Part shown: positions 3,382 through 28,335 of the stretch, one piece after another
Numbering within the stretch: position 1 is the first letter of the stretch
Layout of the letters: the number at the start of each line of letters is the position of its first letter
Source of the DNA: a virus
Lineage: Duplodnaviria > Caudoviricetes
Reading direction: 5' to 3' (one strand)
IMG/VR virus record: IMGVR_UViG_3300020042_012365
Span: 1 to 54,927 of that record
DNA: 54,927 nucleotides
The notes under the pieces: model-generated
The model's input: the letters and a program-made list of their open reading frames with translations, nothing else
Told to the model about the DNA's origin: nothing
Databases searched by the model: none
Made by a program: the position numbers and the translations under genes

Positions 3382-3555
3382 ATGGATAAAATAACTAAAC
3401 AAGAATTTGAAACGTTTCGTGAAACGTGGAAATCTGAGTGGTACGAACATTGGAGACTCTTGGATATTGACTTTGAAACTTATATGTTAATGAAAGGATT
3501 AACTAAACAAGAATATAAAAATTTAAATAACGACGAATTATGGAAAAACATGTAG
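3382..3555 (+). CDS. Small hypothetical protein (57 aa, MDKITKQEF...), not in ORF track
   Basis: Translated by hand; fills the gap and overlaps the queC start. Confidence 0.55.
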   Translation: MDKITKQEFETFRETWKSEWYEHWRLLDIDFETYMLMKGLTKQEYKNLNNDELWKNM

Positions 3556-4418
3556 TGATTAGCCTTTCAGGTGGAATGGATAGTAGCACTCTTTTACTTA
3601 GATGCTTAAAAGAATATCAAAATGTTGTTTGTATCTCTTTTGACTATGGCCAAAAACATCGAATTGAGCTTGAACGTGCTCAATTATTAGTAGATTATAT
3701 TAATGGACAATTTATTGTAGATAAAGAATCTAAAACAGTAGAATACCCCCATTATATAAAATATCGCCAAATCCAATTAAATGGATTAGCTGATTTATTA
3801 GATTCAGCTTTGGTAACAGGTGGAGCAGAAGTACCTGAAGGACATTATGCTGAAGAAAACATGAAAGCAACAGTTGTTCCAAATAGAAACAAAATATTTG
3901 CTTCAATTACACAAGCAGTTGCACTTTCAGTAGCAAATAAAACAGGTGAGCAATGTGATATTGCAATGGGAATCCACAGCGGAGACCACGCGATCTATTT
4001 GGATTGTAGGCAAGAATTTAGAGACGCTGACGATCATGCTTTCAGAATTGGTAATTGGGGATCTGAAAAAGTAGGTTACTTTACACCATATCTTGAAGGT
4101 GATAAATTTACCATTTTACAAGATGGAGAAGTATTATGTAGTGAATTAGGACTTGATTTTGATGAAGTATATAAACGTACAAACACTTCATATAAACCAA
4201 TTTACCATAACTTTTTATACACAAATGATGAAGATGAAATAGTTGATGGTTCTGATTGGTTTTCTGATTTTAAATCAGCAAGTTCCGTGGAGCGAGTAGA
4301 AGCATTTATTAAATTAGGAAGAAAAGATCCTGTAGAATATGCTGATGAAACAGGTCCTGTAAATTGGGAACACGTAGTAAATGAAGTAACAAAAGTATTA
4401 GAAAACCACAACAATTAA
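3540..4418 (+). CDS. queC: 7-cyano-7-deazaguanine synthase
   Basis: SGGMDS PP-loop, FDYGQKH, VPNRN, GDHAIYLDCR. Confidence 0.9.
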   Translation: MEKHVVISLSGGMDSSTLLLRCLKEYQNVVCISFDYGQKHRIELERAQLLVDYINGQFIVDKESKTVEYPHYIKYRQIQLNGLADLLDSALVTGGAEVPEGHYAEENMKATVVPNRNKIFASITQAVALSVANKTGEQCDIAMGIHSGDHAIYLDCRQEFRDADDHAFRIGNWGSEKVGYFTPYLEGDKFTILQDGEVLCSELGLDFDEVYKRTNTSYKPIYHNFLYTNDEDEIVDGSDWFSDFKSASSVERVEAFIKLGRKDPVEYADETGPVNWEHVVNEVTKVLENHNN

Positions 4419-6015: not shown

Positions 6016-9000
6016 ATGGCACTTACATTGAATAAAATAGGCGTAACAACAGGTAATACTGTTGAGGCGTATCATGTAACTCAATCTATTGATGCTTTTA
6101 CAGGAGAAGAAGCATACGATATTACACTTTCAGGTTCACTAACAGTAACAGGAAGTGTTATTGTAACATCAGGTTTAACTGGATCTTTACAAGGTACGGC
6201 TTCATATGCTACAAATGTATTAAGTTCAAGCTTTGCTTCAACTGCATCATTTTTTAGTGGAACGGTTGTAAGTGCTTCATATGCACTAACAGCTTCATTT
6301 GCATTAAATGCTGGAGGAGGAGCAGCTTTTCCATTCACCGGTAGTGCTTTAATTACTGGTTCATTAGGAGTAACGGGTTCATTAAGTAATGGAAATGGAA
6401 ACATTGCTTCTGGAATCTTTTCCCACGCAGAAGGTAGTACTACAACTTCAACCGGCATCTATTCACACGCAGAAGGCAATAGTACAACATCAACCGGAAA
6501 CTATTCACATGCAGAAGGTAATGGAACAACATCAACAGGAATTGCTTCACACGCAGAAGGCGAACTTACAATTTCAACCGGAGATGCTTCACACGCAGAA
6601 GGTGAAACTACAATATCATCAGGAAGTTATTCACACGCAGAAGGAGCTAGTACAATTTCAACAGGAATGGCTTCACACGCAGAAGGAGCTCTTACTGATG
6701 CCATTGGAGACTATTCACACGCAGAAGGTGCTAGTACAACAGCAACCGGATTTGGGTCACACGCAGAAGGACAATCAACTCTATCATTAGGATTATATTC
6801 CCACGCAGAAGGTGAAAGTACAACTGCAACCGGAAATTGGTCACACGCTGAAGGGCTAGGAACTGTAGCATCGGGATCTTACCAACACGTACAAGGACAA
6901 TACAATATATCATCATCCGCTCAAGCTGCATTTATTCATGGTAATGGTACAAGCACATCAGCAAGATCAAATTTAATTTTTGCATCAGGCTCTCAAGTAC
7001 AAGTAACAGGAAGTGTTATTGTAACTAGTGGTTTTACCGGTTCATTGCTAGGAACGGCAACAACAGCATCATCCACTCCAAATGCTATAATAACAGCATC
7101 TGTATCATCAAATACAATCACATTTACTAAAGGTAATGGTACAACATTTCCCATCACTGTTAATACCGGAAGTGGTGGTGGGGGTGGAAGCGCATTTCCA
7201 TTCACAGGATCCGCAGGAATCTCAGGAAGTATTTTAATAAACTCTCAACTAACATTAGGTGTTGGTAGTGGTGCTTTTTTAGGAGGACCAACACATAATG
7301 TTGCTTTAGGTAAAAATAATCTACAATCAAATACTTCAGGAAGCTTTAACGTTGCTTTAGGTTATGGTGCCTTAGCTTCAAATACTACAGGATACAATAA
7401 CGTTGCTTTAGGTCAAGCTTTAGGTTCAAATACAACAGGAAAATATAACGTTGCTTTAGGTGCTGCTTTAGGTTCAAATACAACAGGAAACTATAACGTT
7501 GCTTTAGGTAGAACTGCTTTAAACGCTAATACAACAGGACTATATAACGTTGCTTTAAGTAAACATGCTTTATATTCAAATACAATAGGAACCGCTAACA
7601 TTGCTTTAGGTCTAACTGCTTTATATTCCAATACAACAGGAAACTCTAACGTTGCTTTAGGTGATAGCGCTTTATATTCAAATACTTCAGGAAGTAACAA
7701 CGTTGCTTTAGGTTCAAGTGCTTTACGTTATAATACAACAGGAAATCAAAACGTTGCTTTAGGTACACAAGCTCTACTTTCAAATACTTCCGGAAACAAT
7801 AACGTTGCTTTAGGTCTAAGTGCTTTATATTCAAATACAACAGGACTATATAACGTTGCTTTAGGTTCAAATGCTTTATATTATAATACAACAGGAACCG
7901 CTAACGTTGCTTTAGGTATAAATGCTTTAAATTACAATACAATAGGAACCGCTAACGTTGCTTTAGGTCCAAGTGCTTTACGTTACAATACAACAGGAAA
8001 CTATAACGTTGCTTTAGGTCGAAAGGCTTTATATTCAAATACAACAGGAACCAATAACGTTGCTTTAGGTCTAAGTGCTTTATATTCAAATACAACAGGA
8101 AATCGAAACGTTGCTCAAGGTTATCAAGCTTTATTTTTAAATACAATAGGAAATAATAACATAGCTCAAGGTTATAGAGCATTATATTCAAATACTTCAG
8201 GAAGCTATAACGTTGCTCAAGGTTATAGAGCATTATATTCAAATACAGAAGGAACCGATAACATAGCTCAAGGTTACAAATCATTATATTACAATACAAC
8301 AGGAAATTATAACGTTGCTTTAGGTAGAAATGCTTTACAATCCAATACAACAGGAAACCAAAACGTTGCTTTAGGTAATAGTGCTTTACGTCAAAATACA
8401 ACAGGAACCAATAACGTTGCTTTGGGTATAAATGCTTTAAATTCAAATACTTCAGGAAGTAACAACGTTGCTTTAGGTCAAAGTGCTTTACGTGACAATA
8501 CAACAGGAACCGCTAACGTTGCTTTAGGTCCAAGTGCTTTAACTTCAAATACAACAGGAGGTGAAAATATTGCTTTAGGTCCAAATGCTTTATATTCAAA
8601 TACTTCCGGAACCAATAACGTTGCTTTAGGATCAGGTTCTTTATCTTCAAATACATCAGGATACAATAACGTTGCTTTAGGTTCACTTGCTTTACGTTCA
8701 AATACAACAGGAAATAATAATATAGCTCAAGGTACAAATGCTTTACAACAAAATACAACAGGAAACTATAACGTTGCTTTAGGTCCAAGTGCTTTACAAT
8801 ATAATACAATAGGAAACTATAACGTTGCTTTAGGTAGAAATACTTTAACTTCAAATACAACAGGAAACCATAATGTTGCTCAAGGTTACAAAGCTTTAAA
8901 TTCAAATACAACAGGATACAACAACGTTGCTTTAGGTCCAAGGGCTTTACGATCAAATACAGAAGGAACCGATAACATAGCTCAAGGTTATAGAGCATTA

Positions 9001-11931
9001 TATTCCAATACAATAGGAAGCTATAACGTTGCTCAAGGTTATAGAGCATTATTTTCAAATACTTCAGGAAGTTTTAACGTTGCTTTAGGTAGAGATGCTT
9101 TATATTACAATACAACAGGAAACTCCAACGTTGCTTTAGGCCAAAGTGCTTTACAATCAAATACAACAGGATACAATAACGTTGCTTTAGGTAGACAAGC
9201 TTTACAATACAATACAACAGGAAATTATAACGTTGCTTTAGGTAGAAGGGCTTTATATTCAAATACAACAGGAACCAATAATGTTGCTCAAGGTTACAAA
9301 GCTTTAAATTCAAATACAACAGGACAAAATAACGTTGCTCAAGGTTATAGAGCATTATTTTCAAATACTTCAGGAAGCAACAATATTGCTCAAGGTTACA
9401 AATCATTATATTACAATACAACAGGAAACTATAACGTTGCTTTAGGTAGAAGTGCTTTATATTCAAATACAACAGGAAACAATAACGTTGCTTTAGGTAG
9501 AGAAGCTTTACGTGACAATACAACAGGAAACTATAACGTTGCTTTAGGTCAAAGTTCTTTACGTGACAATACAACAGGAATTAATAACACTGCTTTAGGT
9601 AGAGAAGCTTTACGTTACAATACAATAGGACAAAATAACGTTGCTCAAGGTTATAGAGCATTATTTTCAAATACTTCAGGAAACGCTAACGTTGCTTTAG
9701 GTAGAGAAGCTTTACGTTACAATACAATAGGAAGCTATAACGTTGCTCAAGGTTATAGAGCATTATTTTCAAATACTTCAGGAAGCAATAATGTTGCTTT
9801 AGGTGCAAGTGCTTTACGTTCTAATACAGTAGGAAACTTTAACGTTGCTTTAGGCCCAGGTGCTTTACAATTAAATACAACAGGAACCAAAAACGTTGCT
9901 TTAGGACAATATTCTTTAAATCAAAATACAACAGGAAATAATAATATAGCTCAAGGTTACAAAGCATTATATTCAAATACAACAGGATACAATAACGTTG
10001 CTTTAGGTCCACTTGCTTTACGTAATAATACTTCAGGAAGTAACAACGTTGCTTTAGGTATAAGTGCTTTACAATACAATACAACAGGAAACTTTAACGT
10101 TGCTTTAGGTCCAAATGCTTTACGTTACAATACAATAGGAATTAATAACACTGCTTTAGGATATCGTGCTTTACAATACAATACAACAGGATACAATAAC
10201 ACTGCTTTAGGAGGAAATGCTTTACAATACAATACAACAGGAACCAATAACGTTGCTTTAGGATATCGTGCTTTACGTTACAATACAACAGGAAATAATA
10301 ATATAGCTCAAGGTTACAATGCTTTACGTTACAATACAACAGGACAAAATAACGTTGCTTTAGGTCCAAATGCTTTACGTTACAATACAACAGGATACAA
10401 CAACGTTGCTTTAGGTAACAGTGCTTTACGTGACAATACAACAGCAAACTCTAACGTTGCTTTAGGGTATCGTGCTTTACGTCAAAATACAACAGGAACC
10501 TATAACGTTGCTTTAGGTAGACAAGCTTTATATTATAATACAATAGGAAATAATAATATAGCTCAAGGTTACAATGCTTTACGTTATAATACAACAGGAA
10601 ACTATAACGTTGCTTTAGGTAGCAGTGCTTTATATTCAAATACTTCAGGAAGCAATAATGTTGCTTTAGGTAGAGAAGCTTTATTTTCAAATACAACAGG
10701 AAACTATAACGTTGCTTTAGGTCAAAGTTCTTTACGTGACAATACAACAGGAAACTATAACGTTGCTTTAGGTAGAGAAGCTTTATTTTCAAATACAACA
10801 GGAACCAATAACGTTGCTTTAGGTCTAAGTGCTTTATTATCCAATACAACAGGAAACTATAACGTTGCTTTAGGATCAGGTTCTTTACAATCAAATACAA
10901 CAGGAAACACTAACATTGCTTTAGGTAAAAATGCTTTACATAATAATACAACAGGAAACGCTAACGTTGCTTTAACCCAAACTGCTTTATATAATAATAC
11001 AACAGGATTCAGTAACATTGCTTTAGGTGATAGTGCTTTAAAATACAATACAACAGGATACCTTAACGTTGCTTTAGGTGCAAGTTCTTTACGTAACAAT
11101 ACAACAGGAAAAAGCAACATAGCTCAAGGAGGCAGTGCTTTATTTTACAATACAACAGGAAACTATAACGTTGCTTTAGGTCTAAATGCTTTAAAATCCA
11201 ATACAGAAGGAACCGATAACATAGCCCAAGGTTACAGAGCATTATATTCAAATACAACAGGAAGTCACAACATTGCTTTAGGTAATGGTGCCTTAAATTA
11301 CAATACTTCAGGAAGTTTTAACGTTGCTTTAGGTAAAGGTGCTTTATTTTTAAATACAGAAGGAAACGATAATATTGTTTTAGGTAGAGATGCTTTACGT
11401 TACAGCACTACAGGATTTAATAACGTTGCTTTAGGTCCAAGTTCTTTAGGTTCTAATACAACAGGATTTCAAAACGTTGCTTTAGGTATAAATGCTTTAG
11501 GTTCTAATACAACAGGAGTAAGTAATATTGGAATAGGGGCCGCAGCTTTAGTAAGTACCACAACAGGAACCGGAAATATAGCTCTAGGAAGTGCTTTACG
11601 TTACAATACAACAGGAAATCAAAATTTAGCTTTAGGAAATTTAGCAATGTATTATCATGCTTCAGGAAATAACAACATTGCTATAGGATATAAAGCTTTA
11701 ATGCCCAATACATCAGGAAGTAATAATACAGCAATAGGTATAGATACATTATCAGGTAATTTTTCAACATCTGTAATTCTAGGACGAGGAGCTACAGCAA
11801 CAGCAGATAATCAATTCGTTATAGGTGCTACCTCATATAATGCCGGATCTGTTGCTACAGAATCCAATTCCTCCACTAGAGTATGGAATGTTATAATAAA
11901 TGGAGTTGCTAGAAAAATATTATTAGCCTAA
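6016..11931 (+). CDS. Giant tail fibre/adhesin-like protein with YadA-head-like 14-aa beta-roll repeats
   Basis: SGSL.VTGS repeats, about 11 SHAEG repeats, then roughly 100 NTTG..NVALG..AL.. repeats. Confidence 0.75.
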   Translation: MALTLNKIGVTTGNTVEAYHVTQSIDAFTGEEAYDITLSGSLTVTGSVIVTSGLTGSLQGTASYATNVLSSSFASTASFFSGTVVSASYALTASFALNAGGGAAFPFTGSALITGSLGVTGSLSNGNGNIASGIFSHAEGSTTTSTGIYSHAEGNSTTSTGNYSHAEGNGTTSTGIASHAEGELTISTGDASHAEGETTISSGSYSHAEGASTISTGMASHAEGALTDAIGDYSHAEGASTTATGFGSHAEGQSTLSLGLYSHAEGESTTATGNWSHAEGLGTVASGSYQHVQGQYNISSSAQAAFIHGNGTSTSARSNLIFASGSQVQVTGSVIVTSGFTGSLLGTATTASSTPNAIITASVSSNTITFTKGNGTTFPITVNTGSGGGGGSAFPFTGSAGISGSILINSQLTLGVGSGAFLGGPTHNVALGKNNLQSNTSGSFNVALGYGALASNTTGYNNVALGQALGSNTTGKYNVALGAALGSNTTGNYNVALGRTALNANTTGLYNVALSKHALYSNTIGTANIALGLTALYSNTTGNSNVALGDSALYSNTSGSNNVALGSSALRYNTTGNQNVALGTQALLSNTSGNNNVALGLSALYSNTTGLYNVALGSNALYYNTTGTANVALGINALNYNTIGTANVALGPSALRYNTTGNYNVALGRKALYSNTTGTNNVALGLSALYSNTTGNRNVAQGYQALFLNTIGNNNIAQGYRALYSNTSGSYNVAQGYRALYSNTEGTDNIAQGYKSLYYNTTGNYNVALGRNALQSNTTGNQNVALGNSALRQNTTGTNNVALGINALNSNTSGSNNVALGQSALRDNTTGTANVALGPSALTSNTTGGENIALGPNALYSNTSGTNNVALGSGSLSSNTSGYNNVALGSLALRSNTTGNNNIAQGTNALQQNTTGNYNVALGPSALQYNTIGNYNVALGRNTLTSNTTGNHNVAQGYKALNSNTTGYNNVALGPRALRSNTEGTDNIAQGYRALYSNTIGSYNVAQGYRALFSNTSGSFNVALGRDALYYNTTGNSNVALGQSALQSNTTGYNNVALGRQALQYNTTGNYNVALGRRALYSNTTGTNNVAQGYKALNSNTTGQNNVAQGYRALFSNTSGSNNIAQGYKSLYYNTTGNYNVALGRSALYSNTTGNNNVALGREALRDNTTGNYNVALGQSSLRDNTTGINNTALGREALRYNTIGQNNVAQGYRALFSNTSGNANVALGREALRYNTIGSYNVAQGYRALFSNTSGSNNVALGASALRSNTVGNFNVALGPGALQLNTTGTKNVALGQYSLNQNTTGNNNIAQGYKALYSNTTGYNNVALGPLALRNNTSGSNNVALGISALQYNTTGNFNVALGPNALRYNTIGINNTALGYRALQYNTTGYNNTALGGNALQYNTTGTNNVALGYRALRYNTTGNNNIAQGYNALRYNTTGQNNVALGPNALRYNTTGYNNVALGNSALRDNTTANSNVALGYRALRQNTTGTYNVALGRQALYYNTIGNNNIAQGYNALRYNTTGNYNVALGSSALYSNTSGSNNVALGREALFSNTTGNYNVALGQSSLRDNTTGNYNVALGREALFSNTTGTNNVALGLSALLSNTTGNYNVALGSGSLQSNTTGNTNIALGKNALHNNTTGNANVALTQTALYNNTTGFSNIALGDSALKYNTTGYLNVALGASSLRNNTTGKSNIAQGGSALFYNTTGNYNVALGLNALKSNTEGTDNIAQGYRALYSNTTGSHNIALGNGALNYNTSGSFNVALGKGALFLNTEGNDNIVLGRDALRYSTTGFNNVALGPSSLGSNTTGFQNVALGINALGSNTTGVSNIGIGAAALVSTTTGTGNIALGSALRYNTTGNQNLALGNLAMYYHASGNNNIAIGYKALMPNTSGSNNTAIGIDTLSGNFSTSVILGRGATATADNQFVIGATSYNAGSVATESNSSTRVWNVIINGVARKILLA
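6415..6860 (+). repeat. 42-bp period repeats encoding SHAEG units
   Basis: tcacacgcagaagg recurs every 42 bp. Confidence 0.85.
7294..11740 (+). repeat. 42-bp period coding tandem array (about 100 units)
   Basis: aatacaacagga...aacgttgctttagg repeated throughout; unit count estimated as length/42. Confidence 0.95.
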
Positions 11932-14487: not shown

Positions 14488-15186
14488 ATGAGTGAAAATA
14501 AACGTAGAAAAAATCACACTGATTTAGAGTGTGTACAAGTAGGTTTTGCAAATGGAGTAGCCCCTGGTTTCCCACTTACAGAACAAGAAAAATGGAAAAT
14601 GGTTAATGAAGCAGAAGAAGCTTATGGTCAATTTTTAACTGCATTAGGTGTAGATTGGAAAAATGATCCAAATTCATCAGAAACACCTCGAAGGATAGCT
14701 AAAAAATATGTATTTGAACAATGGAAAGGACGATATGACTTACCCCCAACAATAACATCATTTCCTAGTGATGGATATGACGGACTTGTTACTGAATGTA
14801 ATATACCATTAACCAGTATGTGTAGCCACCATCACGAAAGTATTCTAGGAAGAGTCCATATTTCATATATACCTGGAGAAGGTGGTAGAGTAATTGGTTT
14901 ATCTAAATTAAATCGCATAGTTGAACATTTTGGTCGTAGAGGAGCAATCCAAGAACAGCTTACAATGGCTATCTATAAAGCTGTAGATAAAGTATGTGAA
15001 GGTAATATTGGAGTTGCTGTGCAAATTGTAGCTTCACACTCCTGTGTATCATGTCGTGGCACAGGTCATCGAGGTGCATCTATGATTACCACTAAACTCT
15101 CAGGAAATTTCTTTGGGTTACCGGTAGTTAGAAATGAATTTTTTGATGCTATTAAAAGTGCTAATGCTCTAAAAGATACCCATTAA
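14488..15186 (+). CDS. folE: GTP cyclohydrolase I
   Basis: TPRRIAK, SMCSHH, GLSKL.R, QEQLT, HSC..CRG. Confidence 0.92.
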   Translation: MSENKRRKNHTDLECVQVGFANGVAPGFPLTEQEKWKMVNEAEEAYGQFLTALGVDWKNDPNSSETPRRIAKKYVFEQWKGRYDLPPTITSFPSDGYDGLVTECNIPLTSMCSHHHESILGRVHISYIPGEGGRVIGLSKLNRIVEHFGRRGAIQEQLTMAIYKAVDKVCEGNIGVAVQIVASHSCVSCRGTGHRGASMITTKLSGNFFGLPVVRNEFFDAIKSANALKDTH

Positions 15187-15245
15187 TTTGTCTTAAAACT
15201 CGTTGAAGGGGAGTAATTCATAATATTTATAATAAAATTAACCTT

Positions 15246-16022
15246 ATGAGTATTGGTATTTACAAAATCACTTCCCCATCAAATAAAGTTTATATAGGTC
15301 AATCTGTTAATATTGAACGAAGATTTAAACATTATAAAAATTTAAAAGAAATAAAGGGACAAAAGAAAATATATTTTTCTATAAAAAAACATGGATATGA
15401 AACTCATTTATTTGAAATACTAGAAGAATGTAGTATAGATGAATTAAATTTTAGAGAAGAATATTGGATTAGTTTATATAATAGTTGTAATAACGGATTA
15501 AACATAAGTGAGGGAGGAGGAAGTTTTGGAAAATTTAATAAAGGTAAAAAAAGACCATCTAAAGTTAAACTTAAAATTTCCCAAACTAAACAAAATAATC
15601 CAAGAAAAACAACAAAAGAAATGATTCAAACATACCGTGATGCTTCCCCAACAAAAAAAGAAATATTCCAATATGATCTAGAAGGCAATTTTATTAAAAA
15701 ATACCCAAGTATAAATGAAGCCTCCAGACAGCTAGAAATTAGAAATGATGGAATCTCAGCATGCCTTAGAGGAAAACAAAAATCAGCATATAGTTTCCAA
15801 TGGTTCTATACTTTTCAAAATTACGTTCATCCAATAACTGAATCATCCAAACCCCCACAATGGAAAGGTAATAGGAATTTAGAATTAGATAAACATATAA
15901 TTGAAATTTTAAAAATGTATGACGAAGGTAAAAATATAACTTATATAGCTAAAAAATTTAATGTTCATCGAGATGCAATAAAACAAAGAATTAATGAAAA
16001 CAAAAACCCTTGGAATTCATAA
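15246..16022 (+). CDS. Free-standing GIY-YIG homing endonuclease with NUMOD-like domains and C-terminal HTH
   Basis: GIYKIT...VYIGQS, R...H, E..WI, GLN...GG; QYDLEG..I..Y.SI.EA NUMOD1-like motif. Confidence 0.88.
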   Translation: MSIGIYKITSPSNKVYIGQSVNIERRFKHYKNLKEIKGQKKIYFSIKKHGYETHLFEILEECSIDELNFREEYWISLYNSCNNGLNISEGGGSFGKFNKGKKRPSKVKLKISQTKQNNPRKTTKEMIQTYRDASPTKKEIFQYDLEGNFIKKYPSINEASRQLEIRNDGISACLRGKQKSAYSFQWFYTFQNYVHPITESSKPPQWKGNRNLELDKHIIEILKMYDEGKNITYIAKKFNVHRDAIKQRINENKNPWNS

Positions 16023-20729: not shown

Positions 20730-21082
20730 ATGGAAGAAGTAAAACGACGCGGTCGTCCCGCTAGAGACGAGAATGACACAAAATCCAATTTATGTACAAT
20801 TAAGGACCCAAACATGGATCCCTTTTATATTGTCAAAGACGCAACTAACTTTACAGTAATGGAGCGTTCTACTTCTATGAGAGGATTTGCTGGTAAAAAA
20901 GCAACTGGTAAAGAAGTAGAAAAAATAGTAGGACACTACAGTAATTTTTCAAATGCGTTAAATCGTGTAGCCAAAGAAAAATTTTATCAAAACGAAAATT
21001 CGTACAATACAATCCAAGACTATATTAGTACTTGGAACACAGTCAAAGAAGGAATAGAAACAATGTTAAGCAAAGTAGAATT

Positions 21083-21086
<4 letters not shown>
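20730..21086 (+). CDS. Hypothetical protein with N-terminal AT-hook-like motif
   Basis: KRRGRPAR. Confidence 0.6.
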
Positions 21087-23023
<1,937 letters not shown>

Positions 23024-23024
<1 letters not shown>

Positions 23025-23302: not shown

Positions 23303-23316
23303 ACATATTTATAACT

Positions 23317-24291
23317 ATGAAACTAACAGATATCCTACGCGAAATTGAAGGTGAAGAAGATGGAATGAACCAATTGAAGGTAAATTACGATCTTGCTGTT
23401 CAACCAACTGATTTAAACGCAGCACTTGATGCTTTAAACGACCCTAAAACTTACGGTATTTACTCACAGAATATGCGTGATCAAAAAGTTATTAATAGAG
23501 GATTTGGACCCTCAATAGATGCACAAAAAAAGAAAGTTGCCACAGGGGATTGGGATTCTCGTTCAGAAGATGAAAAAACATTTAAGTTAAATGATATTAA
23601 AAACAGAGTACCTGAAGCATGGGGTATTGGTGAAAAAGAAGCAGAAGTAGGCTATAAAGAATGGCAAGTAGAAGGAAACGATGGTACTTTAGAAGACTAC
23701 CTAGTTACTCTTTCATTTGAAAAACTTCCAAAAAGTTTATTAGGACCATATTCTAGGAATTATTTTCCTAAGAAAACTGCTGAAAATCAAAGAAAGTATG
23801 GTGGTAAAATGGAACAAGATATTCATTATATAGTAAAAGATGGTAAAATAATATTTCCATCTACACTAGAAAATCCATACAAAACAAAACCATACTTGTC
23901 TAAAGTATTAAAAACAATTATGGACAATGCAGGAGTAGAACATCAATTAGTAGATGTTGAACAAGATGGAGGTGAAGCTTCAATGACTAAAGAAAAAACA
24001 CCACCACTAACTAACACAACTTCAATTTTAACTATTACATTAGACCCAGATAAAATTAAAGGTAAAAAACCTGAATTAAATAATATAATTAAGTTGTTAA
24101 AAAACACATATGATAAAGATTTTAATTATGATGAAGAAAATAGTGTAATTAAAATTACAAATATTAAACCTGAACGAAGAACTGATGTTAGAAGCCAATT
24201 TACTAAATTTTTAAAACAACAATCTCCAATAAAAGAAGATTTTGATTTTGAAAGATATCAAATGTTAAGAAGAGCAGGTATTATAAAATAA
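23317..24291 (+). CDS. Hypothetical protein, putative virion/internal head protein
   Basis: N-term MKLTDILRE, C-term RYQMLRRAGIIK; ATATTTATAA upstream. Confidence 0.6.
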   Translation: MKLTDILREIEGEEDGMNQLKVNYDLAVQPTDLNAALDALNDPKTYGIYSQNMRDQKVINRGFGPSIDAQKKKVATGDWDSRSEDEKTFKLNDIKNRVPEAWGIGEKEAEVGYKEWQVEGNDGTLEDYLVTLSFEKLPKSLLGPYSRNYFPKKTAENQRKYGGKMEQDIHYIVKDGKIIFPSTLENPYKTKPYLSKVLKTIMDNAGVEHQLVDVEQDGGEASMTKEKTPPLTNTTSILTITLDPDKIKGKKPELNNIIKLLKNTYDKDFNYDEENSVIKITNIKPERRTDVRSQFTKFLKQQSPIKEDFDFERYQMLRRAGIIK

Positions 24292-24328
24292 AATAAAATA
24301 AAATAAAATAAAATAAAATAAAATAAAA
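24284..24328 (+). repeat. (TAAAA)9 microsatellite spanning stop codon, spacer and start codon
   Basis: Directly visible. Confidence 0.9.
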
Positions 24329-24660
24329 TGACACAAGAACAATTACGTATGCAAATGTTAGCAGGTATTATTACCGAAGGACAATACAAAGCTAAATTAA
24401 ATGAAAATGAAGAATATGTTCCTTATCAATTTGATGATGAAAAAGGAAAAGAATTATATTTAAAATATGATAAATCTTATGAAAATCCTGCATGGACTAG
24501 AGGAGATTTCGAATATAGTAAAGAAATCGATTTACAAACCCTATTAGACATTACAGGAATGTCTTTAGAAGAACTTAAAAAACTTAACACTTATCGAGAT
24601 GAAGGTTGGACTTTAGATATAGATGAAAAGAATGAAATAGTAACAGAGTTTGTAGACTAA
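24328..24660 (+). CDS. Acidic hypothetical protein with N-terminal RMQMLAGII tag
   Basis: First about 22 aa nearly identical to the 26748 ORF. Confidence 0.65.
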   Translation: MTQEQLRMQMLAGIITEGQYKAKLNENEEYVPYQFDDEKGKELYLKYDKSYENPAWTRGDFEYSKEIDLQTLLDITGMSLEELKKLNTYRDEGWTLDIDEKNEIVTEFVD

Positions 24661-24680
24661 AAAATAAAAATATTTAAAGA

Positions 24681-24714
24681 AAAGCTTGCCTAGTGCAAGC
24701 TTTTTTTGTATAAT
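24681..24714 (+). terminator. Hairpin plus T-tract overlapping promoter-like TTGCCT-N17-TATAAT
   Basis: AAAGCTTGC-CTAGT-GCAAGCTTTTTTT. Confidence 0.75.
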
Positions 24715-24720
24715 ACGGTT

Positions 24721-25629
24721 ATGAAAGAAAATACGTTATATGTAGAACGTTTTCGCCCTACTGAACTGAAATACTATGTTGGTAACGAAAATGTTAAAGA
24801 AACAATCCAAAAGTATCTAGACCAAGGTGACATTCAAAATTTCATCTTTTATGGTCCTGCAGGTACAGGAAAAACTACCCTAGCAAAAATTATCGTTAAA
24901 AATCTAGATTGCGATTATCTTTATATAAACGCATCTGATGAAAACGGAATCGATACTATTCGAGAGAAAGTAAAGGGATTTGCTAGTTCTGCATCTTGGA
25001 AAGGTATTAAAGTAGTAATCCTAGATGAAGCAGATTTTATCACAATCCAGGGACAAGCCGCTTTACGAAACGTAATCGAAACCTTTTCTCGTTCAACACG
25101 ATTTATCTTAACCTGTAACTTTATTGAACGAATTATTGATCCACTTCAATCACGTTGCCAGGTGCTTAAAATTGTACCTCCATCTAAAACAGATGTGTAC
25201 AACCATTTAACTTGGATACTAGCTGACCAGTTATCTATTTCATATGAACCGGAAGATTTAAAAACCCTTATAGTACAATATTATCCGGACATGAGGAAAA
25301 TGTTGAATGTGATTCAAATGTCTGTAAAAGATGATCATATCCAACTTGATAAAACTGTATTAACCTCAAACAACTATATCAAAGAAGTATTGAAGGAACT
25401 AACAGGTAAAAAAAATTGGCTTACCATTAGACAAATCATTGCCGATTCAAATACAAAGGACTTTGAAGAATTGTATCGCAATTTATTTGAATACAGTTCA
25501 AAATATGCTCCTGGAAATGAAGGATCAGTTGCAATTATATTAAACGAACATTTGTACCAAGCAAATTTCCGAATAGATAAAGAAATAAATGTAATGTCAG
25601 CTTTAGCTAAAATAATAGAGGTAATATGA
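24721..25629 (+). CDS. Clamp loader AAA+ subunit (RFC/T4 gp44-like)
   Basis: VERFRP, GPAGTGKT, NASDENGID, DEAD, SRC motifs. Confidence 0.92.
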   Translation: MKENTLYVERFRPTELKYYVGNENVKETIQKYLDQGDIQNFIFYGPAGTGKTTLAKIIVKNLDCDYLYINASDENGIDTIREKVKGFASSASWKGIKVVILDEADFITIQGQAALRNVIETFSRSTRFILTCNFIERIIDPLQSRCQVLKIVPPSKTDVYNHLTWILADQLSISYEPEDLKTLIVQYYPDMRKMLNVIQMSVKDDHIQLDKTVLTSNNYIKEVLKELTGKKNWLTIRQIIADSNTKDFEELYRNLFEYSSKYAPGNEGSVAIILNEHLYQANFRIDKEINVMSALAKIIEVI

Positions 25630-25838
25630 AACACTTTTTGAAATACACACTTTCATGGGTGTCTCAAAATTTAGCAACCCCATTTTGGATGGTAGGTCAT
25701 GTCCATTTAATGACAACAGTTTATGCTGATATTACAGAAATATTAATGTCATTTGGAATGAATTTAATTGTTGCAGCAGGATTCATCATTGATTTTATAA
25801 CATATAGAAAAGAAAAAGTAACCAATAAACCAAAATAA
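25626..25838 (+). CDS. Small membrane protein
   Basis: Hydrophobic segments; overlaps the upstream gene. Confidence 0.5.
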   Translation: MKHFLKYTLSWVSQNLATPFWMVGHVHLMTTVYADITEILMSFGMNLIVAAGFIIDFITYRKEKVTNKPK

Positions 25839-25840
25839 AA

Positions 25841-26086
25841 ATGCAAGAACAACCAAAAATGAACATCGACTTTAAAAACACAACATCGGTAGATGGTTTT
25901 GATGGAGGTAAATTATTCGGACAAGCAGTAGTAATCCGTAAAATTTCTAAATTTATTGCTGGAACAGATGAGGATCAACTTATCCCAATTCCAGTATTTT
26001 ATGATTTAGAAAGCAAGAAAATCTTACCTGATTCTCTCCCTCCAGATCTTCGTGAAGAATACAAAGCGATTACTTTAGATGTCTAA
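25841..26086 (+). CDS. Hypothetical phage protein (degenerate Zn-ribbon-like)
   Basis: F.Q...RKIS....G...IP.PVF pattern. Confidence 0.6.
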   Translation: MQEQPKMNIDFKNTTSVDGFDGGKLFGQAVVIRKISKFIAGTDEDQLIPIPVFYDLESKKILPDSLPPDLREEYKAITLDV

Positions 26087-26510
26087 AAAACAAATCAAGG
26101 ATTTATGGGGGTGGTTAAATGAAATCACCCTCTATAAAACCCCTGTTGAAAACATTTCGGAGGAATCATGGGATAAATGGAACTCTTACGTAGTTAATCG
26201 ATACGTATCGATGGATATACGCTATATTGAATTAGCAAATTATGTTCAAACAATACCCTACGATAACAAACACCAAATATACCAAATTTACCGAGAAATG
26301 ATCCCTAAATCTAAAGTGTTCTTGAAATATCTTAAGTCAAGAACAAAGAAAAAACCTGCTACATTGGTAGAATATGTAGCAAAACATTTTGAATGTGGTT
26401 TAGGTGAAGCCGAAGAATACATTGACATATTACGTGACCATGGTACACGAAGTATCCTTTATAATATGGGTATAGATGAAAAAGAAGTAGAAAAGCTATT
26501 AAAAAAATGA
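26079..26510 (+). CDS. Possible clamp loader small subunit (gp62-like)
   Basis: LN.I...K, Y.VNR..S, AN..Q and Y..IPK pattern; context near the gp44-like gene. Confidence 0.5.
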   Translation: MSKKQIKDLWGWLNEITLYKTPVENISEESWDKWNSYVVNRYVSMDIRYIELANYVQTIPYDNKHQIYQIYREMIPKSKVFLKYLKSRTKKKPATLVEYVAKHFECGLGEAEEYIDILRDHGTRSILYNMGIDEKEVEKLLKK

Positions 26511-26725
26511 ATAGAACAATAAAAAAAACGGATTCCATAGTAGATTCTATTATAGACAAATTTGTTGATAGAGCTACATTTGGAAAACAAAAATATGGAA
26601 CCGATTTAGACCGCAACGACCTAGAATTAGAAGAATGGCTAGAACATAGCATCCAGGAAAAAATGGATGATATACTATATATTCAAAAATCTTTAATTGT
26701 ATTGCGCGAAGCAAAAAATTCATAA
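26507..26725 (+). CDS. Small all-alpha protein (NTP-PPase-like)
   Basis: G.KYG..L.R..L..W..H..E..D..LY. Confidence 0.45.
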   Translation: MNRTIKKTDSIVDSIIDKFVDRATFGKQKYGTDLDRNDLELEEWLEHSIQEKMDDILYIQKSLIVLREAKNS

Positions 26726-26747
26726 TATTTATAATAAAATATACAAC

Positions 26748-27386
26748 ATGACAAACGAAACTTTACGTATGCAAATGCTTTCAGGTATTATCACAGAAGG
26801 CCAATACAAAGCTATAATCAATAAAGAAATCGAAGATGCTGAAAAAGCATCTTTAAACGAATCTATGATCGGAGGAATTGTAGGAATTGGAGCAATTAAC
26901 CAAATCCCACCTCGTGAAAAAACAGATTATGAATTAGCGTTTGAACATTTTTTAGGTGAGCGTTACGAAAACAGAGAACAAGATCCTTATACAATGAATG
27001 AGGAAGAAGAAGAAGAAGAAGATTATGGTACCAATATAGTTACAGGTAAAAAATTACCTAAACCAGATCCAATTGTTGAAGAAGAAGAAGAAGAAGATTA
27101 TGGTACCAATATAGTTACAGGTAAAAAATTACCTAAACCAGATCCAATTGTTGAAGAAGGATTAAATGAAAATGTAGGATCTACTATAGACAAAATGCTT
27201 CAAACATTTGAATTTTCTGAAAAAGGAAATGATGAAATGATTGAATTTGGTAACTATCTTCTTTCACCTGAAGGGCCAAAAAATATTGCTAGGTCTATTA
27301 AGGGCAAACTTAAAGGAGAAGGTGGAGAAAATTACTTTACTAGTAAACCAGAAGAATTAGACGCTTTTTTAAGCAAATTAAAATAA
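26748..27386 (+). CDS. Acidic hypothetical protein with N-terminal RMQMLSGII tag (start revised to 26748)
   Basis: AATATTTATAATAAAA upstream; N-terminus matches the 24328 ORF. Confidence 0.65.
   Translation: MTNETLRMQMLSGIITEGQYKAIINKEIEDAEKASLNESMIGGIVGIGAINQIPPREKTDYELAFEHFLGERYENREQDPYTMNEEEEEEEDYGTNIVTGKKLPKPDPIVEEEEEEDYGTNIVTGKKLPKPDPIVEEGLNENVGSTIDKMLQTFEFSEKGNDEMIEFGNYLLSPEGPKNIARSIKGKLKGEGGENYFTSKPEELDAFLSKLK
27003..27152 (+). repeat. Exact 75-bp in-frame tandem duplication
   Basis: EEEEEEDYGTNIVTGKKLPKPDPIV x2; GAT codons at 27021 and 27096. Confidence 0.95.
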
Positions 27387-27387
27387 T

Positions 27388-27621
27388 ATGAACCCAAGAG
27401 ACATAATTACAGTAGACGTTCCTCTATTTATTCGTTTACTCGAATATGCTAGAGAAGATGCTCAATCAGACATGGATTTACATGATGTAGCCCAAAATAT
27501 TATCTCATTATCTGTTTCAGGTAAAACATTATCAATGGATGATTATAGTACAATAATTGGATCTCAAGAAAATATTGACGAAATTCGAATGCTTCAAGTA
27601 AGAGCAGGAATTATTAAATAA
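27388..27621 (+). CDS. Hypothetical protein with C-terminal RAGIIK tag
   Basis: DVPLFIRLLEYARED core; ends IRMLQVRAGIIK. Confidence 0.65.
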   Translation: MNPRDIITVDVPLFIRLLEYAREDAQSDMDLHDVAQNIISLSVSGKTLSMDDYSTIIGSQENIDEIRMLQVRAGIIK

Positions 27622-27642: not shown

Positions 27643-28335
27643 ATGAAAAAATTGTTATTATTATTTGTTACCGCAACTATGTTATTTAGTTGTAATACAA
27701 GTACAAAAACTGAAACAACAGAAGCTATTAAATTTGATACAATTGTAAAAATCCATGATGGAGCTTTTGCTTTTTGTGGAGCATCAGCCGCTCTTCCTAC
27801 AGGAAAAAAGATTGTAGTGCAAGGAGTTGTATATGATGAAGGATGTGCAATATGTCCTGTATTATCAGGCCCATCACTTTCTAGCTTAGCGATGAGAGGT
27901 GTTAGTGGAACATACGGGAAATTTAATGTAAATGATAACTTCCAAACTCCAGATGGAACAACGAATACTGTATGGTCTTTATTTTGGTACTACGATACTA
28001 CAACTACTATTCCACAATTTAATCCTTCAACTAAAGAATGGGAACTAATGACACCTTTTAATAGATCATTTGTAATTAATTTAGATTCTCCAAGTACAAG
28101 CGAAAGTAATATGTTTGCGATGCCAGGAATTATTTTTGATACAACATCTACAGGTATTGTATTAGCAAAAGTTTATGGTCCACTTAATGAGGCCGCAGTT
28201 CCATTACGTAAAGCAATACCTGTTGTAAATGGTATGACTTCGGTAACAGCAGCTAAAGTAGGTTTCCCTTTTCCTGTTGGAACACCAATTCCAGTTGCTG
28301 AATATAGTAAGGAACTCCAAAAAAATAAACACTAA
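27643..28335 (+). CDS. Lipoprotein
   Basis: MKKLLLLFVTATMLFS-C lipobox. Confidence 0.75.
   Translation: MKKLLLLFVTATMLFSCNTSTKTETTEAIKFDTIVKIHDGAFAFCGASAALPTGKKIVVQGVVYDEGCAICPVLSGPSLSSLAMRGVSGTYGKFNVNDNFQTPDGTTNTVWSLFWYYDTTTTIPQFNPSTKEWELMTPFNRSFVINLDSPSTSESNMFAMPGIIFDTTSTGIVLAKVYGPLNEAAVPLRKAIPVVNGMTSVTAAKVGFPFPVGTPIPVAEYSKELQKNKH

What the first reader, a model, noticed from the sequence alone, without database searches (positions are those of the whole stretch)
23317..27621. Movable ...AGII peptide tag on four dissimilar proteins: candidate capsid-targeting signal
Seen: N-terminal LRMQMLAGIITEGQYKA (24328) and LRMQMLSGIITEGQYKA (26748), and C-terminal RYQMLRRAGIIK (ends 24291) and RMLQVRAGIIK (ends 27621). 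The protein bodies look unrelated. The N-terminal tags are conserved as protein despite synonymous DNA changes. Tags are separated from bodies by LNE/IKE/IDE, and both gene pairs follow an ATATTTATAA motif. Known: T4 internal proteins use a short capsid-targeting sequence that the prohead protease removes at (I/L)xE. Inference: a modular packaging-signal system that loads varied cargo into the head for injection and works at either terminus.
Basis: partly seen in the sequence, partly recalled or inferred. Interest (0 to 1): 0.8.

Follow-up and report, generated by a model that had tools for sequence, protein, structure and literature searches.

The report
Scaffold-derived capsid-loading tag in phages
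Four unrelated proteins of this phage carry a short end-peptide that matches the tail of the head-scaffolding protein in related phages, so it most likely acts as an address label that loads varied proteins into the phage head.

Summary
The motif ML..[AS]GII occurs four times in the six-frame translation, always at a protein end (two N-terminal, two C-terminal). Randomised sequence gives a mean of 0.03 occurrences.

It belongs to a very large family:
- The 26-aa N-tag MTQEQLRMQMLAGIITEGQYKAKLNE heads 766 + 126 protein clusters in public data.
- 239 sampled proteins have 77 BLAST-unrelated bodies.
- Invariant residues show free synonymous codon variation, so selection acts on the protein.

New finding: in relatives that hold the head module, the gene between the T4-type prohead protease and the gp23-like capsid protein ends in the same motif (…FLRMQKLAGII*). 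This holds in two uncultured contigs, the cultured Flavobacterium phage immuto, Microcystis phage Mel-JY01, and 120 of the 120 listed database homologues. T4 gp22 lacks it.

A protease-type [ILVM]-x-E site lies just after the tag core in 28 of 41 tags of a wider variant (RMQELAG), against an 11% background.

Best reading (about 0.6): the tags copy the scaffold's C-terminal docking peptide. They carry varied cargo into the prohead, and the protease then removes them. This is a scaffold-derived analogue of the T4 capsid-targeting sequence that works at either terminus.

Packaging, cleavage and the binding partner are not shown. The window is about 34% of a genome and lacks the head genes.

The parts
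23305..23314 (+). Promoter-like ATATTTATAA box, 3 nt upstream of the 324-aa gene
   Evidence: Exact match. The same box, TAATAT[TG]TATAATAAAAT, precedes 37 of 53 N-tag genes in relatives. Its timing class is unknown.
23317..24291 (+). 324-aa gene of unknown function that carries the C-terminal tag (candidate conserved head cargo)
   Evidence: ORF. 13 homologues down to 27% identity all keep AGIIK. No Pfam, PHROG or fold match.
24250..24288 (+). C-terminal tag ERYQMLRRAGIIK (residues 312-324). I-K-E lies 4 residues upstream.
   Evidence: The AF2 model gives a helix at 311-319 after a low-confidence linker at 301-309.
24283..24329 (+). (ATAAA) x 9.4 perfect repeat that fills the spacer between the C-tag gene's stop and the N-tag gene's start
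   Evidence: Tandem Repeats Finder; sequence.
24328..24660 (+). 110-aa gene: N-terminal tag plus an acidic body of unknown function
   Evidence: ORF. The body has 13 close homologues. No family.
24328..24405 (+). 26-aa N-terminal tag MTQEQLRMQMLAGIITEGQYKAKLNE. Candidate protease sites are I-T-E17 and L-N-E26.
   Evidence: Conservation profile over 117 proteins, codon table, and 766 + 126 database clusters.
26725..26734 (+). Promoter-like ATATTTATAA box, 14 nt upstream of the second N-tag gene
26748..27386 (+). 212-aa gene: N-terminal tag (S variant) plus a body that holds a perfect 75-bp tandem duplication
   Evidence: Body family also seen in L003, L005, L022 and L037.
26748..26825 (+). N-terminal tag MTNETLRMQMLSGIITEGQYKAIINK. 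S-L-N-E follows at 26850-26861.
27388..27621 (+). 77-aa gene that carries the C-terminal tag. It is conserved in relatives, and its body domain also occurs untagged in a megaphage protein.
   Evidence: 17 distinct homologues in loci. Untagged copy of the domain.
27580..27618 (+). C-terminal tag EIRMLQVRAGIIK (residues 65-77), preceded by I-D-E
21032..23024 (+). Context only: GroES-like gene (21032-21388) and GroEL gene (21381-23024) just upstream
   Evidence: Cpn10 E = 2e-19. GroEL DNA matches.
24706..26510 (+). Context only: clamp-loader large subunit (24706-25629) and small subunit (26079-26510) between the two tagged gene pairs
   Evidence: phrog_168, phrog_225.

Best explanation
The tag is a portable copy of the docking peptide at the C-terminal end of the phage's head-scaffolding protein. 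Its core is [E]-x3-[ML]-x2-[LR]-A-G-I-I; more broadly it is R-M-Q/K-x-L-A-G-[ILV].

Proposed mechanism:
1. During prohead assembly the scaffold tail binds a partner inside the shell. The partner is most likely the gp23-like major capsid protein, otherwise another core component.
2. Any protein that carries the same peptide at its N-terminus, at its C-terminus or internally is drawn into the prohead core.
3. The T4-type prohead protease then cuts at the flanking hydrophobic-x-Glu sites. This frees the cargo body inside the head, possibly for co-injection with the DNA.

Shown here:
- The motif, its terminal placement and its spread over many unrelated bodies.
- Selection at the protein level.
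- Its presence at the scaffold C-terminus.
- The protease gene in relatives.
- Enrichment of h-x-E beside the core.

Inferred: binding, packaging, cleavage and injection.
For: 1. Modularity. The N-tag region matches 766 clusters with E <= 0.01 among 827 candidates of 60-193 aa, and 126 among 153 candidates of 194-2000 aa. 239 tagged proteins fall into 77 BLAST-unrelated body clusters.

2. Conservation. It is near-absolute through L-N-E (E in 115 of 117) and then collapses. Codons vary freely at invariant residues.

3. Scaffold link. The ORF between the Peptidase_S77 protease and the gp23-like capsid gene ends:
- ...NDAFLRMQKLAGII* in G003
- ...NEAFLRMQKLAGII* in G001
- ...SRWQKLAGIIK* in the cultured Flavobacterium phage immuto
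- ...ERMKKLAGIVK* in Microcystis phage Mel-JY01
All 120 listed database homologues end in RMQKLAG[IL]I(K). In a separate scan for RMQELAG, 7 of the 12 C-terminal hits are scaffold-like ORFs followed by a gp23-like gene.

4. Protease. PF03420 is present in G001 and G003, confirmed as phrog_207 for the G003 copy (L052), and is annotated in immuto. The capsid-protein alignment keeps an L-L-x-E61 site.

5. Flanking sites. [ILVM]-x-E lies within 8 aa after AG in 28 of 41 distinct N-terminal RMQELAG proteins, against 11.3% of background windows. It lies within 8 aa before the core in 16 of 21. Every C-tag found in the related loci has such a site within 14 aa upstream.

6. Genome counts for the pattern R-M-Q/K-x-L-A: G001 5, G003 2 and immuto 3, all on the coding strand with 0 hits in the control pattern. 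T4, whose gp22 lacks the motif, has 0.

7. AGIIK is invariant in 13 of 13 members of the 324-aa family, down to 27% identity.

8. Precedent in T4: unrelated internal proteins share only a targeting sequence that places them in the scaffolding core (PMC3012670, passages read). How core localisation works is called 'mysterious' (PMC9958956, passages read).
Against: - No virion proteomics or expression data exist for any tagged protein.
- The window is about 34% complete by CheckV and holds no head genes, so its own scaffold was not seen.
- The scaffold call rests on gene position, composition and neighbours. PHROGs gives it no family, and tblastn against GenBank phages did not link it to T4 gp22.
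- The tagged genes lie among replication genes. The promoter-like box in front of them also precedes a homing-endonuclease gene and a PhoH-like gene (the PhoH name is my reading of its N-terminus; no family search was run). It is absent in front of the scaffold and capsid genes. Late expression is therefore not shown.
- One tagged protein is a P-loop kinase-like enzyme, which is not an obvious head cargo.
- The conserved TEGQYKAKLNE half of the N-tag is unexplained.
- In the 212-aa protein the junction is INK, not LNE.
- Glu-rich proteins carry h-x-E often, so single sites mean little.
Confidence: 0.6

Rival explanations
1. The peptide docks its bearers onto a hub that is not part of the head. 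Candidates are a chaperone (phage or host GroEL, by likeness to the GroES mobile loop, or DnaK) or a replisome component. The scaffold would use the same hub for folding or delivery.
For: GroES and GroEL genes lie just upstream of the first tagged pair, and GroEL is also present in G001 and immuto. The tagged genes are interleaved with clamp-loader genes. A-G-I-I-T loosely resembles the G-G-I-V-L type mobile loop (recalled). A P-loop kinase-like protein carries the tag.
Against: The complete Mel-JY01 genome and the LR756508 record have the scaffold motif but no Cpn60 gene. The phage's own GroES loop reads YGSIFIPD, not the tag. A chaperone or replisome hub does not explain why the motif sits at the very end of the scaffold, or why h-x-E sites flank it.
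Confidence: 0.13
2. The peptide is an assembly or self-association element. Tagged proteins would be regulators or competitors of the scaffold-capsid interaction (timing, size control, inhibition of premature assembly), not cargo that is kept and injected.
For: It is the same motif as the scaffold tail. The two C-tag families are conserved, core-like genes present in many relatives. T4 also has small conserved core proteins (PMC9958956 passages).
Against: 77 unrelated, mostly orphan bodies and several different tagged genes per genome fit a varied cargo set better than a regulatory role. Regulators would not need flanking protease sites.
Confidence: 0.12
3. The conserved 5' segment (promoter-like box plus leader codons) is mainly a recombination handle of a gene-cassette system in hyperplastic regions, and the peptide itself has no targeting role.
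For: The box precedes 37 of 53 N-tag genes, and 11 of 53 directly follow a C-tag gene. In-frame fusions and double-tag proteins exist (P0150, P0151, P0133), which shows recombination at the tags.
Against: Invariant amino acids with freely varying codons show selection on the peptide. The motif also occurs at C-termini and on the scaffold, where no cassette logic applies.
Confidence: 0.05

Closest known systems
Capsid-targeting sequence (CTS) of phage T4 internal proteins IPII and IPIII
   Same: A short terminal peptide shared by otherwise unrelated proteins of a T4-type phage. It sends them into the scaffolding core and is removed by the gp21-type protease at (L/I)-x-E. Cargo genes are diverse and variable (PMC3012670 and PMC9958956, passages read). 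T4 IPII and IPIII both start MKTYQEFIAE.
   Different: No sequence likeness. The tag is 26 aa (core about 13) against about 10. It also occurs at C-termini and internally. It is visibly a copy of the scaffold's own C-terminal tail. The cargo repertoire is far larger (77 body clusters in 239 sampled proteins). T4 gp22 does not end in this motif.
Scaffold C-terminal shell-binding tails (P22 gp8; herpesvirus scaffold tail cut at the maturation site) and engineered P22 scaffold-fusion cargo
   Same: The C-terminal end of a scaffolding protein docks on the capsid protein. In herpesviruses the maturation protease cuts it off. Fusing that part to foreign proteins loads them into capsids.
   Different: Here the borrowing appears to be natural and widespread, uses a peptide of only about 13 aa, and also works from the N-terminus. 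Binding to the capsid protein is not shown.
Encapsulin cargo-loading peptides
   Same: Short terminal peptides that direct diverse cargo to the inside of an HK97-fold shell (search listing and abstract starts only; details recalled).
   Different: This is a DNA-packaging phage head with a separate scaffold and protease. The peptide is probably removed after loading, and its sequence is unrelated.
Propeptide-bearing head and ejection proteins of giant phages (SPN3US and phiKZ-like)
   Same: Many head-internal proteins are processed by the prohead protease at a short motif ending in Glu (abstract starts only; motif recalled).
   Different: As far as I recall, no shared portable address peptide copied from the scaffold tail has been described there.

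Membership tests
T4-type capsid-targeting sequence system | One short terminal peptide shared by otherwise unrelated proteins of the phage | tested here: met
   Four proteins in the window. 77 unrelated body clusters among 239 tagged proteins.
T4-type capsid-targeting sequence system | The phage encodes a gp21-type prohead protease (Peptidase_S77) | tested here: met
   PF03420 over cut-off in 2 of 5 tag-bearing records (G001, G003; the other three are 35-43% complete fragments). phrog_207. Annotated in immuto. Not testable in the window itself, which lacks the head module.
T4-type capsid-targeting sequence system | A hydrophobic-x-Glu site at the tag-body junction | tested here: met
   L-N-E ends the N-tag (L 111, N 112, E 115 of 117). 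28 of 41 against 11% background. 16 of 21 upstream. Exception: the 212-aa protein has INK at that place.
T4-type capsid-targeting sequence system | The tag is actually cleaved in proheads and the bodies are found in virions and injected | not testable with these tools
   No proteomics found for immuto or Mel-JY01.
T4-type capsid-targeting sequence system | Sequence homology to the T4 CTS (MKTYQEFIAE) | tested here: not met
   T4 IPII and IPIII N-termini compared with the tag consensus. The pattern R-M-Q/K-x-L-A is absent from T4.
Scaffold C-terminal docking tail borrowed by cargo | The motif is at the extreme C-terminus of the scaffolding protein | tested here: met
   120 of 120 listed homologues. 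7 scaffold-like ORFs in the RMQELAG scan.
Scaffold C-terminal docking tail borrowed by cargo | That ORF really is the scaffold (a gp22 equivalent) | tested here: inconclusive
   Its position between protease and gp23-like capsid gene, its strongly acidic helical sequence and its conserved N-terminus all fit. PHROGs gives no family, and no tblastn link to T4 gp22 was found.
Scaffold C-terminal docking tail borrowed by cargo | The tail binds the major capsid protein or another core component | not testable with these tools
GroES mobile-loop type chaperonin-binding peptide | Co-occurrence with a phage chaperonin, and likeness to the phage's own GroES loop | tested here: not met
   No Cpn60 in complete Mel-JY01 or in LR756508 despite the scaffold motif. 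The phage GroES loop is YGSIFIPD.

The most novel reading that the evidence does not exclude
An abundant clade of aquatic T4-like phages uses a natural, portable address label copied from the scaffold's capsid-docking tail. The label loads hundreds of unrelated orphan proteins into the head, from either terminus, for delivery into the host with the DNA. That would be a large unexplored reservoir of injected host-takeover or anti-defence effectors. It may also reflect a general rule, 'targeting sequence = mimic of a scaffold terminus': T4's own CTS (MKTYQEFIAEA) resembles the N-terminus of its scaffold gp22 (MLKEQLIAEA).
Probability: 0.4. Interest if true: 0.85.

Novelty: new variant of a known kind. 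Interest (0 to 1): 0.75.

Why it matters
A recent T4 review calls the way proteins are localised to the prohead core 'mysterious' (PMC9958956, passages read). Here the targeting peptide and the scaffold tail are visibly the same sequence. That gives a concrete hypothesis: cargo gets in by imitating the scaffold's docking peptide. A cultured system exists to test it, Flavobacterium phage immuto, which has two N-tagged genes and a tagged scaffold.

If the hypothesis holds, three things follow:
- Hundreds of orphan phage proteins gain a location and a likely role as packaged, possibly injected, proteins.
- A simple sequence rule becomes available to find such cargo in metagenomes.
- A short natural tag, usable at either terminus, becomes available for loading proteins into large phage capsids.

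Tried and rejected
- Complex prediction of the G001 capsid protein (alignment A3) with the first 45 aa of N-tagged proteins (alignment A2) gave 'no answer' (score 0.01, controls not run). It says nothing either way.
- Pfam and PHROGs on the four window proteins found no family.
- tblastn of the 110-aa protein against GenBank phages found only three weak matches (E 0.8 to 5), none covering the tag core. Short tags are below BLAST's reach there, and immuto's tags were found only by DNA pattern.
- The AF2 model of the 324-aa protein is moderate (mean pLDDT 71.6). Foldseek against viral and PDB libraries gave nothing at E <= 0.001. The protein atlas gave no usable hit.
- Cargo function: 77 body representatives gave only 11 Pfam families, each in a single member. 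PHROG hits were scattered, also one member each.
- ATATTTATAA with one mismatch is not enriched in the window (31 found, 43 expected).
- A clamp-binding (PIP-box-like) reading was dropped because the spacing of Q and the hydrophobic residues does not fit (recalled consensus).
- Secretion signal and RiPP leader were dropped. The peptide is not hydrophobic enough, and the bodies are folded proteins of 60-350 aa.
- A T4 late-promoter reading of the upstream box was dropped. TATAAATA appears only on the opposite strand, and the box also precedes non-structural genes.
- Literature: the strings LAGIITE, QKLAGII, RAGIIK and MLAGII gave one irrelevant paper. There is no paper on Mel-JY01. The immuto papers listed concern deazaguanines and polymerase swapping (listing only).
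- Supplementary files were not consulted.

Full report
**The window**

The window is the whole record held for this genome: 54,927 bp, about 34% complete by CheckV. All genes are on the + strand and GC is about 31%.

It is a fragment of a large T4-like phage related to Flavobacterium phage vB_FspM_immuto. Genes identified include:
- a QueC-like gene, a DNA polymerase, a PD-(D/E)XK exonuclease, glycosyltransferases and a 1971-aa repeat-rich virion protein;
- GroES and GroEL;
- both clamp-loader subunits.

The order of the shared genes (QueC, polymerase, GroES/GroEL, nuclease, glycosyltransferase) resembles immuto. No head-module gene lies in the window.

**The observation**

- ML.{0,3}[AS]GI occurs four times in six frames, and only there.
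- 300 Markov randomisations gave a mean of 0.033 and never more than one.
- A looser expression finds no fifth tag in the window.
- None of the four bodies has a Pfam or PHROG family.

**How far the tag reaches**

- A scan of viral contigs with the 110-aa protein returned 50 loci. In nearly all of them only residues 1 to about 28 match, at 72-96% identity, in front of different bodies. Often there are two or three such genes per 12-kb locus.
- In the 5.8-billion-protein collection the tag region matches 766 clusters of 60-193 aa and 126 clusters of 194-2000 aa.
- Anchored on AGII, 117 proteins are almost invariant from M1 to E26 (L, G, I, T, E, Y in 117 of 117; the E of L-N-E in 115 of 117). 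Directly afterwards no residue dominates.
- 239 tagged proteins form 77 clusters with no BLAST similarity between them.
- Nearly all bodies are orphans. One is a P-loop kinase-like protein.
- In 53 distinct genes the invariant residues use several synonymous codons, so the constraint is on the peptide and not on the DNA.

**C-terminal and internal forms**

- In the related loci, ORFs ending in [AS]G[ILV][ILV]K fall into just two body families plus the scaffold. These are the homologues of the window's 324-aa protein and of its 77-aa protein.
- In the 324-aa family AGIIK is invariant in 13 of 13 sequences, down to 27% identity.
- The AF2 model places the tag as a short helix (311-319) behind a flexible linker, followed by AGIIK.
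- N- and C-tags align on a shared core: E at -8, M/L at -4, A-G-I-I at 0 to +3.
- Internal tags exist in what look like fusions of an upstream domain, a tag and a body (P0150, P0151, P0156). One protein has two tags (P0133).
- 11 of 53 N-tag genes start right after the stop codon of a C-tag gene, as in the window.

**The new link: the scaffold**

Two tag-bearing contigs that reach the head module encode a T4-type prohead protease (PF03420). The next ORF is strongly acidic and helical, and it is followed directly by a gp23-like capsid gene. That ORF ends ...NDAFLRMQKLAGII* in G003 and ...NEAFLRMQKLAGII* in G001.

The same position carries the same kind of ending elsewhere:
- In cultured phage immuto (gp067, annotated 'DNA polymerase phi-like protein') it ends ...SRWQKLAGIIK*.
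- In Microcystis phage Mel-JY01 it ends ...ERMKKLAGIVK*.
- A 484-kb uncultured phage has ...SRMQKLADIS*.
- At least 7,990 database clusters match this scaffold's C-terminal domain, and all 120 listed end in RMQKLAG[IL]I(K).
- T4 gp22 ends ...VYAKVASRF* and lacks the motif.

Immuto also has two N-tagged genes: gp230, starting MKKQILSEQFKRMQFLAGIITESE, and one starting at 111675.

G001 has the scaffold tail, three N-tags and both C-tag families. Two of its tags are variants, RMQELAGL and RMKKLAGL*.

The pattern R-M-Q/K-x-L-A gives 5, 2 and 3 coding-strand hits in G001, G003 and immuto, with no control hits. It gives none in T4 or in a 735-kb megaphage.

**A wider family**

- 46 lie within 20 aa of the first Met of small ORFs.
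- 12 lie at the extreme C-terminus.
- 21 lie elsewhere.

Of the 12 C-terminal cases, 7 are scaffold-like. They have the same conserved N-terminus, ...LLKEAIADA..ETAIANAK, and are followed by a gp23-like gene. Two belong to the 77-aa family.

**Protease sites**

- [ILVM]-x-E lies within 8 aa after A-G in 28 of 41 distinct N-terminal RMQELAG proteins. The background is 11.3% of 8-aa windows in the same proteins.
- It lies within 8 aa before the core in 16 of 21.
- In the window's tags the candidate sites are I-T-E17 and L-N-E26 (N-tags), and I-K-E and I-D-E (C-tags).
- The capsid-protein alignment keeps an L-L-x-E61 site where T4 gp23 is cut (the T4 position is recalled).

**Interpretation**

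The simplest account is that the tag imitates the scaffold's terminal docking peptide and so takes its bearer into the prohead core, after which the protease trims it. This is the logic of the T4 capsid-targeting sequence (PMC3012670 and PMC9958956, passages read). The difference is an unrelated, longer peptide that is usable at either terminus and whose origin is visible.

The binding partner is unknown. By analogy with other scaffolds (recalled), the capsid protein is the first candidate.

**Points against, or still open**

- There are no data on virion content or expression.
- The window's own scaffold is unseen.
- The scaffold assignment rests on position and composition.
- The upstream box TAATAT[TG]TATAATAAAAT precedes 37 of 53 N-tag genes. 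It also precedes a homing-endonuclease gene and a gene whose N-terminus reads as PhoH-like (my reading, no family search), and it is missing before the scaffold and capsid genes. Timing is therefore unknown.
- The second half of the N-tag has no assigned role.

**Rivals**

- A chaperonin or replisome hub is weakened by Mel-JY01 and LR756508, which keep the scaffold motif without a Cpn60 gene.
- A pure recombination-cassette reading is contradicted by the codon data.

**Novelty**

Searches for the motif strings and for related concepts found no description of this tag. I rate it a new variant of a known kind (capsid-targeting peptides), of high interest because it makes core targeting testable in a cultured phage.

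Noticed in passing
window 24283-24329: A perfect (ATAAA) x 9.4 repeat fills the whole spacer between the stop of the C-tag gene and the start of the N-tag gene. It is a likely slippage-prone tract.
   Followed up: partly
window 27003-27159: A perfect 75-bp tandem duplication (2.1 copies) inside the 212-aa N-tagged gene. It repeats EEEEEEDYGTNIVTGKKLPKPDPIV, and its perfect identity suggests a recent event.
   Followed up: partly
window 27643-28335: A 230-aa ORF directly after the C-tag gene starts with a lipoprotein-type signal (MKKLLLLFVTATMLFSC). It has no Pfam or PHROG family.
   Followed up: no
T4 record NC_000866: L058 8118-8927 and L188 517-1516: T4 IPII and IPIII start MKTYQEFIAEA, and the T4 scaffold gp22 starts MLKEQLIAEA. 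The classical T4 targeting sequence may also imitate a scaffold terminus. The match is short and could be chance.
   Followed up: partly
L056 2592-3833 (NC_055915 gp067): The immuto gene annotated 'DNA polymerase phi-like protein' sits between the prohead protease and the major capsid protein, is highly acidic, and ends in the tag motif. It is most likely the scaffolding protein.
   Followed up: yes
L001 784-1665 (LR756501): The body domain of the 77-aa protein (DVPLFIR.LEYA.EDA.TDMDLH...) forms the C-terminus of a 293-aa megaphage protein that lacks the tag.
   Followed up: partly
database proteins P0150, P0151, P0156, P0133: In-frame fusions carry the tag internally between two domains, and one protein carries two tags. 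This points to recombination between tag-coding segments.
   Followed up: partly
window 15223-16022: A GIY-YIG homing-endonuclease gene is preceded by the same TAATATTTATAATAAAAT box as the tagged genes.
   Followed up: no
window 6016-11931: A 1971-aa repeat-rich ORF matches virion structural and tail-spike PHROGs in 14-17 stretches, and is preceded by TAATATGTATAATAAAAT.
   Followed up: no
window 3540-4418 and 14488-15186: QueC-like and GTP-cyclohydrolase genes suggest 7-deazaguanine modification of the DNA, as annotated in immuto.
   Followed up: no
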